A DNA stretch of 64,000 bases. It comes from Escherichia phage vB_EcoM_Lutter. The notes under the pieces are model-generated. The model worked only from the letters and a program-made list of their open reading frames with translations. It did no database searches and was not told the DNA's origin. The DNA lies in the sequence record NC_054924.1; one strand, given 5' to 3'. Of the stretch, positions 10,722 through 11,121 are shown piece by piece. The number at the start of each line of letters is the position of its first letter. Position 1 is the stretch's first letter. A program made the translations under genes and the position numbers.

Positions 10722-10791
10722 AGTAGTTGATAGGGTAATAGTATCACAACTAAAACCCTATGTAAACAACTTTGTGAAATTATTTTAAATC
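10722..10791 (-). promoter_or_regulatory. Early promoter plus stem-loop cassette (PeSL-like); copy 1 of a direct repeat
   Basis: Minus strand GTTTACA (10761-10767), 17 nt, TACTAT (10738-10743); 30-nt core 10762-10791 is identical to 11092-11121. Confidence 0.55.
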
Positions 10792-11037
10792 TTCTAATCG
10801 TTTCTTCATCTTAGAACCATTTTTAGCAATTTCTCCTGCATCGGAGCATAACGCTAAAAGTGCTTTAACTTTAGTTTGGTCTCCTTTAAAAGACGAAGGA
10901 TCGACCGCAGCAGCAAGTTCTTTAATACGAGAGAAAAGACGCTCAGCTTCAGCTAAAGCCATTCCAAGCTTTACTTCCATACCGTGAGAAGATTCAGTAA
11001 TAGTAGTTTTTGTAGCAAACTCTTTGAAAGTTTTCAT
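10780..11037 (-). CDS. ipI: Internal protein I-like protein (ipI locus, variable allele)
   Basis: 85 aa; MKTFKEFATK... N-terminus; sits immediately downstream of 57B in the transcription direction, as ipI does in T4. Confidence 0.65.
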   Translation of the reverse strand: MKTFKEFATKTTITESSHGMEVKLGMALAEAERLFSRIKELAAAVDPSSFKGDQTKVKALLALCSDAGEIAKNGSKMKKRLEDLK

Positions 11038-11040
11038 TTT

Positions 11041-11121
11041 ATTTTCCTAATTAATTTTGATGAGGTAATAGTATCACTACCTCATCAGCGTGTAAACAAC
11101 TTTGTGAAATTATTTTAAATC
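11041..11121 (-). promoter_or_regulatory. Early promoter plus stem-loop cassette (PeSL-like); copy 2
   Basis: Minus strand GTTTACA (11091-11097), 17 nt, TACTAT (11068-11073); 9-bp inverted repeat gatgaggta/tacctcatc around the -10. Confidence 0.55.

What the first reader, a model, noticed from the sequence alone, without database searches (positions are those of the whole stretch)
10722..11121. ipI-like gene is a cassette flanked by direct repeats of a promoter/stem-loop element that includes the last codons of the upstream gene
A 30-nt sequence gtaaacaactttgtgaaattattttaaatc is identical at 10762-10791 and 11092-11121, and an adjacent gtaatagtatcac block at 10737-10749 and 11065-11077 extends the imperfect repeat. 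Each copy holds the last codons and stop of the gene upstream in transcription (both 57B and the ipI-like protein end in DLK), then an early promoter (GTTTACA, 17 nt, TACTAT) whose -10 lies in a stem-loop. Such promoter-early stem-loop elements have been proposed as recombination substrates for modular shuffling in T4-type phages; similar elements sit upstream of denV (1781-1827), 4921-5514, 5571-5906 and 6184-6447. This marks the boundaries of a swappable module carrying an injected-protein gene.
Basis: partly seen in the sequence, partly recalled or inferred. Interest (0 to 1): 0.55.

Follow-up and report, generated by a model that had tools for sequence, protein, structure and literature searches.

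The report
Promoter repeats flanking a swappable Ip5 gene
In this T4-like phage, the gene for an injected head protein (Ip5) sits between two copies of a short promoter-plus-hairpin element, and comparison with relatives shows that genes are gained, lost and swapped at exactly these elements; this is real, but it was first described for this locus in 1994.

Summary
A 69-nt direct repeat (83% identical, exact 30-mer inside) flanks the 85-aa gene at 10780-11037 on the minus strand. Each copy holds the DLK-stop codons of the upstream gene, an AT-rich UP region, GTTTACA-17 nt-TGnTACTAT, and a hairpin bridging the -10.

The window is a Tequatrovirus about 98.6% identical to ime09. The gene is Ip5, not a homologue of IpI beyond the capsid-targeting leader. 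It lies in the known hypervariable site between 57B (Acb1) and tRNA.4.

Across 14 genomes this one site holds 0 to 4 internal-protein genes in 11 different arrangements. Nine indels reconstructed at base level all have their crossover inside the element or the first codons after it. Deleting 330 bp anywhere within the 35-nt repeat (11125-11091 / 10795-10761) regenerates the empty site of phage slur13.

Crossovers fall at several positions within the element, which favours general homologous recombination over a site-specific mechanism. The hairpin is conserved by covariation; its function is inferred only.

Three of the four "similar elements" listed elsewhere are plain early promoters with no stable hairpin.

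The parts
11110..11565 (-). Gene 57B (Acb1 anti-CBASS phosphodiesterase family). It is the fixed left anchor of the variable site. Its last codons GAT TTA AAA TAA (11121-11110) are part of the repeat.
   Evidence: ORF. Pfam PF23474 Acb1, E = 2.6e-60. Annotated 57B in T4, RB32 and GiZh.
11038..11125 (-). Upstream copy of the promoter/stem-loop element (57B|Ip5 junction). It holds the DLK-stop of 57B, the UP region TTTCACAAAGTT, the -35 GTTTACA (11097-11091), a 17-nt spacer, the TGn-extended -10 TACTAT (11073-11068), stem arms 11087-11078 and 11067-11058 with the -10 in the loop, then the leader and ribosome-binding site up to the Ip5 ATG at 11037.
   Evidence: (D1, I18).
11091..11125 (-). Upstream copy of the 35-nt crossover zone AGATGATTTAAAATAATTTCACAAAGTTGTTTACA. 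The exact 30-mer 11092-11121 lies within it.
   Evidence: Deleting 330 bp at any offset in this zone reproduces the slur13 empty site with 6 mismatches in 170. The same zone bounds the Ip5 indel between T6 and IMG/VR locus L033.
10780..11037 (-). The ip5 gene: an 85-aa internal (injected) head protein with an N-terminal capsid-targeting leader, MKTFKEFATKTTITE. This is the cargo of the cassette.
   Evidence: phrog_3499 'internal head protein', E = 1.2e-49. Annotated Ip5/ipV in ime09, RB32, RB51, T6, GiZh and the 1994 RB15 entry. Similar to T4 IpI over the leader only.
10710..10795 (-). Downstream copy of the element (Ip5|tRNA.4 junction). It holds the DLK-stop of Ip5 (10791-10780), the same UP region and -35 (TTTACA 10766-10761), the -10 TACTAT (10743-10738), outer stem arms 10761-10755 and 10736-10730, then the leader with GGAG up to the tRNA.4 ATG at 10709. 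From the -35 onward it is essentially the element of the empty site in slur13.
10761..10795 (-). Downstream copy of the 35-nt crossover zone. The exact 30-mer 10762-10791 lies within it.
10724..10752 (-). Second crossover zone (extended -10, -10 and 3' stem arm: GTGATACTATTACCCTATCAA). It bounds the Ip6 and Ip7 indels relative to T6, GiZh and T2.
   Evidence: The left- and right-anchored similarities of WIN versus L002/L001 overlap by 28-29 nt here. T6-to-WIN zone is TATTACCCTATCAA and T2-to-WIN zone is TATTACC.
10524..10709 (-). Gene tRNA.4: a 61-aa predicted membrane protein and the fixed right anchor of the variable site.
   Evidence: ORF. phrog_1692. Annotated tRNA.4 in T4, RB32 and GiZh.

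Best explanation
This is the first internal-protein (IP) locus of a T-even phage, an array site between 57B and tRNA.4 where self-contained gene cassettes are exchanged.

Each cassette consists of a leader and ribosome-binding site, the codons of the capsid-targeting leader, an unrelated mature coding part, the stop codon, and then an AT-rich UP region, a -35 and a 5' stem arm. Two adjacent cassettes together form a complete T4 early promoter (UP / GTTTACA / TGn / TACTAT) whose -10 is bridged by a hairpin. That promoter drives the downstream gene.

All junctions share short identical patches: about 31-35 nt of stop/UP/-35, about 12-21 nt around the -10, and about 35-47 nt of 3' arm, leader and start codons. 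The phage's general homologous-recombination machinery can therefore delete, insert, duplicate or replace cassettes, during mixed infection or between misaligned copies.

In this window one such event left Ip5 flanked by a 35-nt direct repeat. The locus equals the empty site of slur13 plus a 330-bp insertion. That is the product expected from one crossover with a circular or misaligned copy.

Shown here: the repeat, the promoter consensus match, the hairpin and its covariation, the cassette polymorphism, and the crossover positions.

Inferred: that the promoters fire, which recombination pathway is used, and the role of the hairpin. The hairpin probably acts on read-through RNA from the upstream cassette as an attenuator or 3'-end stabiliser, because transcripts started at the local promoter lack its 5' arm.
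For: - Repeat and promoter. The upstream half is 34/38 identical, against at most 25/38 for other early promoters.
- Same site, 11 arrangements: none (slur13, also L006/L007), IpI (T4), Ip5 (this window, RB51), Ip6, Ip7, Ip5-Ip6 (T6, GiZh), Ip5-Ip7 (T2), Ip5-IpI (RB3), Ip9-Ip7, Ip5-Ip9-Ip7 (RB32), Ip5-Ip9-Ip7-Ip8 (RB15).
- All 48 distinct cassette ORFs begin with the MKT(Y/F)xEF leader.
- The junction table shows block A following the upstream gene, a universal core GTGATACTATTA, and block C following the downstream gene.
- Nine base-level reconstructions place every crossover inside the element or its first codons.
- A hairpin bridges the -10 in 32 of 37 unique elements, median z = -3.9. In 12 elements sharing one register, 89% of cells pair against 77% in shuffles (0/500), 8 of 13 pairs change on both sides, and slid controls give 33-65%.
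- Literature: the PeSL definition and its measured promoter and terminator activities (PMC2839356); the T4/PST consensus TTTACW-N17-TAYWAT (PMC4122927); T4 early promoters described as UP/-35/TGn/-10 (PMC2988021); T4 makes deletions and amplifications through short homologies and lost ipIII that way (PMC9391042).
Against: - No transcript or promoter-activity data were available for these two sites. The T4 GenBank records carry no promoter feature here.
- The hairpins are followed by A-rich, not T-rich, sequence, and the scan found no terminator-like site here. A classical intrinsic-terminator role is therefore not supported by sequence.
- Chimeric junctions with mismatched stem arms exist (T2 Ip5|Ip7, RB32 Ip9|Ip7, L025 position 407 with z = -1.2). 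The hairpin is not indispensable.
- In other lineages IP genes are joined without any element. The 57B stop overlaps the IP start codon (AAATGAAAAC), or cassettes sit about 8 nt apart. The element helps exchange but is not required for an IP array.
- The compared genomes are related, so the nine events are not all independent. Three of the zones are short or single-offset (RB15-to-RB32 7 nt, T2-to-WIN 7 nt, RB3-to-WIN one offset).
- The 12 sequences used for the covariation count were hand-picked for a shared register.
Confidence: 0.85

Rival explanations
1. The repeat only reflects two strong early promoters held to the same consensus by selection for expression. It plays no part in gene exchange.
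For: T4 early promoters share extended consensus beyond -35/-10 (PMC2988021). The unrelated promoter at 6519 shares 25/38 with the upstream block, including TTTCACAAA..TGTTTACA. Downstream of the -35 the two copies are no more alike than background.
Against: The upstream halves are 34/38 identical and the identity runs into the coding sequence. Every indel boundary tested maps into the elements. The empty site in slur13 equals this locus minus 330 bp cut within the repeat.
Confidence: 0.04
2. Exchange is structure- or site-specific. The covarying hairpin is recognised or cut by a dedicated protein, for example a cruciform-cleaving nuclease such as endonuclease VII or an unknown recombinase. 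The locus would then behave like an integron, with attC-like folded sites.
For: The stem is conserved as a structure, with at least 6 different arm sequences and 8 of 13 pairs showing double changes, around a universal core GTGATACTATTA. Arbiol 2010 left open whether a targeted recombinase helps (PMC2839356).
Against: Crossover zones are spread over at least four different parts of the element: the stop/UP/-35 block, the -10/3' arm, the leader, and the start/leader codons. A site-specific system would give one fixed point. Chimeric junctions with broken stems persist. No recombinase gene was seen among the ORFs I examined around the locus.
Confidence: 0.07
3. Turnover at the locus is driven mainly by double-strand breaks from a neighbouring homing endonuclease, with co-conversion tracts that simply end in the nearest shared sequence.
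For: An HNH endonuclease ORF lies at 9130-9762, about 1 kb from the locus (phrog_14736, E = 6e-124; Pfam HNH is below its cut-off). It is absent from the equivalent position in GiZh. T4 has SegB, a GIY-YIG homing endonuclease, in the same tRNA region.
Against: Its cleavage site is unknown. Many phages with different IP content lack this ORF. This model explains what initiates recombination, not why the boundaries lie at the elements, so it complements the main explanation and does not replace it.
Confidence: 0.04

Closest known systems
IP-locus promoter/stem-loop elements of T-even phages (Repoila, Tetart, Bouet & Krisch 1994, EMBO J 13:4181, as described in Arbiol et al. 2010, PMC2839356)
   Same: Same locus (57B-tRNA.4), same gene family and even the same gene: Ip5, RB15 entry Z35082.1. 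Same flanking T4-early-promoter elements with AT-rich stem-loops, and the same proposal that they mediate IP shuffling and confine it to the two IP loci. The RB32 genome record already annotates Ip9 and Ip7 as 'flanked by 43 bp direct repeat'.
   Different: Nothing of substance. This window is one more genome with the Ip5-only arrangement, which RB51 and ime09 also have. I could not read the 1994 paper itself, so the comparison rests on how later papers and GenBank notes describe it.
PeSL (promoter-early stem-loop) cassettes of RB49/phi1, and of T4/PST and KVP40/nt-1 (Arbiol 2010; Comeau 2014)
   Same: Same layout: stop codon of the upstream gene in an AT-rich region, -35/-10, a stem-loop most often between the boxes or overlapping the -10, then the Shine-Dalgarno sequence and start codon. 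It matches the T4/PST consensus TTTACW-N17-TAYWAT. It is associated with indels of small accessory genes.
   Different: Arbiol 2010 calls the T-even IP elements 'analogs, not homologs' of RB49 PeSLs: they use a T4-type -35 (GTTTAC) instead of TTGACA, and weaker AT-rich stems without polyG/polyC. The terminator activity and mini-circle formation shown for RB49/phi1 were not tested here, and no T-run follows the stems.
Integron gene-cassette arrays (attC sites)
   Same: An array of small, promoter-proximal adaptive gene cassettes at one fixed site. They are separated by imperfect inverted repeats whose structure, not sequence, is conserved.
   Different: No integrase is present. Every cassette has its own promoter. 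Crossovers are scattered within the element, not at one fixed point. This is an analogy only.

Membership tests
PeSL-type promoter/stem-loop cassette element (T4/PST class) | [quoted passage not shown] | tested here: met
   The TAA of 57B (11112-11110) and of Ip5 (10782-10780) lie 13 nt before GTTTACA. The 40 nt upstream of the -35 are 70-78% A+T. Definition from PMC2839356 Fig. 2 legend.
PeSL-type promoter/stem-loop cassette element (T4/PST class) | Early promoter matching TTTACW-N17-TAYWAT | tested here: met
   TTTACA-17-TACTAT in both copies, with G before the -35 and a TGn-extended -10. Consensus from PMC4122927.
PeSL-type promoter/stem-loop cassette element (T4/PST class) | Stable stem-loop within or next to the promoter, commonly overlapping the -10 | tested here: met
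   Upstream copy z = -6.0 and downstream copy z = -2.3. 32 of 37 related elements bridge the -10. Covariation shown.
PeSL-type promoter/stem-loop cassette element (T4/PST class) | Ends with the Shine-Dalgarno sequence and start codon of the downstream gene | tested here: met
   AGGAAAATAAAATG before ip5 and GAGGAGAATAAAATG before tRNA.4.
PeSL-type promoter/stem-loop cassette element (T4/PST class) | Coincides with indel or replacement boundaries between related genomes | tested here: met
   Nine reconstructed events, all with their crossover in the element or its first codons. Junction table.
PeSL-type promoter/stem-loop cassette element (T4/PST class) | Stem-loop acts as a transcription terminator or attenuator | tested here: inconclusive
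   No T-run follows either stem, and no terminator-like site was called here. Activity was measured only for RB49/phi1 PeSL211/210. This needs an experiment.
PeSL-type promoter/stem-loop cassette element (T4/PST class) | Promoter is active early in infection; flanked genes can excise as mini-circles | not testable with these tools
   Requires transcript mapping and inverse PCR on infected cells or virions.
T-even internal protein (IP) gene | N-terminal capsid-targeting leader (MKT[YF]xEF...E) followed by a family-specific mature part | tested here: met
   Ip5 begins MKTFKEFATKTTITE. All 48 distinct cassette ORFs at this site carry the leader. PHROG 'internal head protein', E = 1.2e-49. The role of the leader is stated in PMC12373910 and PMC9391042.
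T-even internal protein (IP) gene | Located in one of the two IP loci (57B-tRNA.4, or the e/denV region) | tested here: met
   It lies between 57B and tRNA.4.
   BLASTP similarity covers residues 1-22 only, E = 1e-4. The gene is Ip5.
T-even internal protein (IP) gene | Packaged in the head, processed by the prohead protease, and injected | not testable with these tools
   Inferred from the leader only.

The most novel reading that the evidence does not exclude
The hairpin that bridges the -10, kept by compensatory changes in at least six lineages around an invariant GTGATACTATTA core, may not be just a transcript feature. It could be a structure-specific signal, for example a cruciform cut by endonuclease VII or bound by an unknown factor, that actively starts recombination at cassette borders. 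That would make the IP loci an integrase-free counterpart of integrons for anti-restriction genes.
Probability: 0.07. Interest if true: 0.65.

Novelty: already known. Interest (0 to 1): 0.2.

Why it matters
The IP loci hold injected proteins that, where tested, each disable a specific GmrSD-type restriction enzyme: Ip1, Ip2 and Ip3 of T4 (PMC12373910). How these genes are swapped therefore bears on how T-even phages change host range.

The window gives a clean textbook example: an empty site, single cassettes and multi-cassette arrays, all related by crossovers inside one short element. It adds no new principle. The flanking repeats, their promoter/stem-loop nature and their proposed role were published for this very locus in 1994 and revisited in 2010 and 2014.

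Two points add modest value. The crossovers are spread across the element, which argues for general recombination. The hairpin is under selection, with formal covariation. These sharpen the one question still open, which is what the hairpin is for.

Tried and rejected
- Repoila 1994 (PMC395341) and Miller 2003 (PMC150520) are not held. Statements about them rest on later papers and GenBank notes.
- The T4 records NC_000866 and AF158101 carry no promoter features at this locus, so I could not confirm the promoters from annotation.
- A literature search for experimental mapping of the ipI and tRNA.4 promoters gave only general reviews.
- Rfam found no family on the elements; it found only the neighbouring tRNAs.
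- Pfam has no family for Ip5.
- My first regex (TTTAC...) missed the GTGTAC/GTATAC-type elements of the L014/L016/L017 lineage. I found them by reading the sequence.
- Three ungapped deletion reconstructions failed at first because of wrong indel ranges or extra 1-3 nt indels. They were redone with corrected anchors. RB15-to-RB32 and RB3-to-WIN remain less clean, with short or single-offset zones.
- I considered and rejected the idea that Ip5's DLK end was copied from 57B. A distant Ip5 homologue also ends in EDLK-stop, with a different downstream sequence.
- I did not build a covariance model. The hairpin sits in at least two registers relative to the -10, so one fixed structure would not fit all elements.
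- I ran no further search on Ip5, because its function is not part of the finding.

Full report
**1. What is in the sequence**

All genes around the finding are on the minus strand. In order of transcription they are gene 1 (12520-11807), 57A (11807-11565), 57B (11565-11110), an 85-aa ORF (11037-10780), and a 61-aa membrane-protein ORF (10709-10524).

The two intergenic regions that flank the 85-aa ORF are a direct repeat: 69 nt, 83% identical, at 10727-10795 and 11057-11125, with spacing 330. It has no other match in the window even with 3 mismatches, and none in 100 shuffles.

Read on the coding strand, each copy runs as follows:
- GA(T/A)GAT TTA AAA TAA, the last codons and stop of 57B or of the 85-aa ORF, both of which end in DLK
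- TTTCACAAAGTT
- GTTTACA
- a 17-nt spacer
- TGA TACTAT
- a leader, the ribosome-binding site and the ATG

One search finds TTTACA-17-TACTAT with a TG-extended -10 in both copies. Hinton 2010 describes T4 early promoters as UP/-35/TGn/-10 promoters (PMC2988021). Comeau 2014 gives TTTACW-N17-TAYWAT for the T4/PST pair (PMC4122927). Both copies match.

**2. The hairpin**

In the upstream copy a perfect 10-bp inverted repeat (11087-11078 / 11067-11058) encloses the -10. It folds at -17.4 kcal/mol as RNA (z = -6.0) and -8.1 kcal/mol as DNA (z = -5.0). In the downstream copy a different 7-bp outer stem, ATAGGGT/ACCCTAT (10761-10755 / 10736-10730), does the same, less strongly (RNA z = -2.3, DNA z = -1.75).

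**3. Is the repeat more than promoter consensus?**

The window holds 8 sites with the full T4-early signature. Over the stop/UP/-35 half the two copies are 34/38 identical, while every other pair scores 9-25/38. Downstream of the -35 they score 24/45, which is within the background range of up to 25/45. So the real duplication is a block of about 35 nt plus the shared -10 core. The rest of the 69-nt repeat is ordinary promoter resemblance.

**4. Identity of the locus**

The window is a Tequatrovirus about 98.6% identical to phage ime09 over this stretch.
- 57B belongs to the Acb1 anti-CBASS family (Pfam PF23474, E = 2.6e-60).
- The 85-aa ORF is Ip5. It matches PHROG 'internal head protein' at E = 1.2e-49 and is annotated Ip5 or ipV in ime09, RB32, RB51, T6 and GiZh.
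- Ip5 and its flanks were already deposited in the 1994 RB15 entry Z35082.1, which reads 57B end, Ip5, Ip9, Ip7, Ip8, tRNA.4 start.
- Ip5 resembles T4 IpI only over the first ~22 residues, the capsid-targeting leader. So 'ipI-like' is right by position and leader, not by homology.

**5. Comparative test of the interpretation**

I collected 36 IMG/VR loci through 57B, plus named genomes from GenBank. The distance from the 57B stop to the tRNA.4 start ranges from 79 to 1,663 nt.

All 48 distinct ORFs in that interval start with MKT(Y/F)xEF...E and then diverge into many unrelated mature sequences.

Among Tequatrovirus genomes the site holds the following:

| Content | Genomes |
|---|---|
| nothing | slur13 |
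| IpI | T4 |
| Ip5 | this window, RB51 |
| Ip6 | L033 |
| Ip7 | L032 |
| Ip5-Ip6 | T6, GiZh, L002 |
| Ip5-Ip7 | T2 |
| Ip5-IpI | RB3 |
| Ip9-Ip7 | L025 |
| Ip5-Ip9-Ip7 | RB32 |
| Ip5-Ip9-Ip7-Ip8 | RB15 |

Every junction is one of the promoter/stem-loop elements. Sorting the 40 junctions by neighbour shows a three-part mosaic:
- The stop/UP/-35/5'-arm block is constant for a given upstream gene.
- A core, GTGATACTATTA, is universal.
- The 3'-arm/leader/RBS block is largely constant for a given downstream gene.

Chimeras with mismatched arms occur (T2 Ip5|Ip7, RB32 Ip9|Ip7, CM8 Ip5|IpI).

**6. Base-level crossovers**

For each pair I deleted a fixed length from the longer locus at every offset and recorded which offsets best reproduce the shorter locus. 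That gives the crossover zone (a cruder version is).

| Comparison | Deleted | Crossover zone | Fit |
|---|---|---|---|
| WIN to slur13 | 330 bp | 35 nt, AGATGATTTAAAATAATTTCACAAAGTTGTTTACA (11125-11091 / 10795-10761) | 164/170 identical |
| T6 to L033 | 330 bp | 32 nt of the same block | 6 mismatches in 468 |
| T6 to WIN | 298 bp | TATTACCCTATCAA | 8 in 500 |
| T2 to WIN | 379 bp | TATTACC | 7 in 210 |
| RB32 to WIN | 711 bp | 47 nt, from the core to ATGAAA | 14 in 500 |
| T2 to L032 | 327 bp | 35 nt, 3' arm to start codon | 13 in 549 |
| RB3 to T4 | 330 bp | AAAATGAAAACTTTCAAAGA | 16 in 537 |
| RB15 to RB32 | 303 bp | AACAAAA | 14 in 403 |
| RB3 to WIN | 366 bp | one offset, about 32 nt after the Ip5 stop | 10 in 368 |

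The RB32-to-WIN zone corresponds to the repeat that the RB32 record already annotates as a '43 bp direct repeat'.

They are spread over at least four different parts of the element. That is what general homologous recombination on short patches predicts and what a fixed-site recombinase does not. The nine events share ancestry and are not fully independent, and the last two plus T2-to-WIN are less well resolved.

**7. Origin of the shared DLK codons**

57B ends in (D/E)DLK in distant lineages too. The Ip5 homologue in locus L014, which is about 81% identical at the protein level and sits in a tightly packed array, also ends in RLEDLK-stop. There it is followed directly by GTATAC, without TTTCACAAAGTT.

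So the DLK codons are native to both genes. What the Ip5 3' flank acquired in the T-even lineage is the 57B-type UP/-35 block. The 12-nt coincidence GATTTAAAATAA may have served as the homology for that event, but this is inference.

**8. The hairpin is under selection**

Of 37 unique elements, 32 have at least 5 pairs bridging the -10. The median z is -3.9, and 78% fall below -2. At least six different outer arms occur: GAGG/CCTC, AGGG/CCCT, GGTC/GACC, GGGC/GCCC, GGAC/GTCC and GGGA/TCCC. The L014 lineage has further stems, GTGTAGG/CCTACAC and GGGATA/TATCCC.

I aligned 12 elements that share one register. In that alignment 89.1% of cells pair against 76.8% in shuffles (0 of 500 reach the observed value), 8 of 13 pairs change on both sides, and slid controls give 33-65%. 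The caveats are that the 12 sequences are related and were chosen by hand for register.

The function of the hairpin is not shown. Its 5' arm lies upstream of the expected start site, so only read-through transcripts, or single-stranded or extruded DNA, can form it. It does not cover the ribosome-binding site. It is followed by A-rich sequence, and no terminator-like site was called.

For RB49/phi1, one PeSL stem-loop reduced downstream lacZ expression about as much as rrnB T1 (PMC2839356). I therefore rate 'attenuator or 3'-end stabiliser of the upstream cassette's RNA' as the most likely role, at modest confidence.

**9. Mechanism class**

Srikant 2022 shows experimentally that T4 rapidly generates amplifications and deletions by recombination between short homologies, and that ipIII was lost in three of five populations (PMC9391042). 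Arbiol 2010 showed mini-circles formed by recombination between flanking PeSLs in RB49 and phi1.

The window's structure, an empty-site element plus a 330-bp insert bounded by a 35-nt direct repeat, is the product expected from a single crossover with such a circle or from unequal exchange.

**10. What is already known**

Arbiol 2010 states that Repoila et al. [quoted passage not shown] Together with the 1994 RB15 entry and the RB32 annotation, this means the finding restates published knowledge for this exact locus. I could not read the 1994 paper itself.

**11.

The window also contains the second IP locus:
- An IpIII-like ORF at 445-1023 (MKTYKEFIAE...).
- An Ip5 paralogue at 1828-2124, between e and denV (48% identity, E = 1e-24).
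- A further ORF with the leader at 6690-7163.

The promoter at 1824, between that paralogue and denV, has a hairpin (z = -4.4) of another kind: it pairs the spacer with the downstream GGAGG. The promoters at 5569, 5961 and 6519 precede ORFs without the leader and have no significant hairpin.

**12. Verdict**

Novelty: already known. Interest is low. The remaining value lies in the open question of what the covarying hairpin does.

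Noticed in passing
window 1828-2124 (minus strand): A 98-aa ORF (93 aa from the internal MKTYSEF start) between lysozyme e and denV is a paralogue of Ip5: 48% identity, E = 1e-24. The same IP family therefore sits in both IP loci of one genome, which implies past exchange between the two loci.
   Followed up: partly
window 445-1023, 6690-7163 (minus strand): Two more ORFs carry the capsid-targeting leader: a 192-aa IpIII-like one (MKTYKEFIAE...) after denV, and a 157-aa one (MKSYTQFLNE...). 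The gene order in the second IP locus (e, Ip5 paralogue, denV, IpIII-like) appears, from my memory of the T4 map, to differ from T4's; I did not check this.
   Followed up: no
window 9130-9762 (minus strand): A 210-aa HNH endonuclease ORF (phrog_14736, E = 6e-124; Pfam HNH below its cut-off) sits between tRNA.2 and the tRNA gene cluster (tRNAs at 7913-9123), about 1 kb from the IP locus. It is absent from the same position in GiZh. T4 has the unrelated GIY-YIG SegB in this region. It is probably a free-standing homing endonuclease that could add to recombination nearby.
   Followed up: partly
window 1774-1824 and 58327-58377 (minus strand): Two other early promoters have strong hairpins (z = -4.4 each). 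Their 5' arm lies in the promoter spacer and their 3' arm covers the downstream GGAGG or the start region. Read-through transcripts would have translation initiation masked, while transcripts from the local promoter would not. I recall the same arrangement for some T4 genes.
   Followed up: no
L047 (Shigella phage CM8, NC_054939.1 70400-74600): A perfect 974-bp tandem duplication gives 57B, Ip5, IpI, a 3' fragment of 57B, Ip5, IpI, Ip8, tRNA.4. The novel joint lies just 3' of an element (...AAACACTCA|GTACTTGTG...) and runs into the interior of 57B at an ACTC microhomology. It is either a recent illegitimate duplication at the IP locus or an assembly artefact.
   Followed up: partly
L003, L008, L012, L015, L019, L021, L022, L026-L029, L034, L037 (around position 3454): In many more distant phages the 57B stop codon overlaps the start codon of the first IP gene (TTAAAATGAAAAC), with no promoter element between them. 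In L014/L016/L017 some IP genes are only about 8 nt apart. IP arrays can therefore exist as operons without the element.
   Followed up: partly
L006, L007 (IMG/VR) and L041 (slur13): These are natural 'empty sites' in which 57B is followed by a single element and then tRNA.4, with a gap of 70-80 nt. They would be useful recipients for testing cassette insertion.
   Followed up: yes
window 6140-6185 (minus strand): A promoter-like site with a GTGTAC -35 (GTGTACAAACACCAAGGACGGTGTTATTAT) resembles the GTGTAC-type elements seen in the L014 lineage. My TTTAC-based scan did not list it.
   Followed up: no
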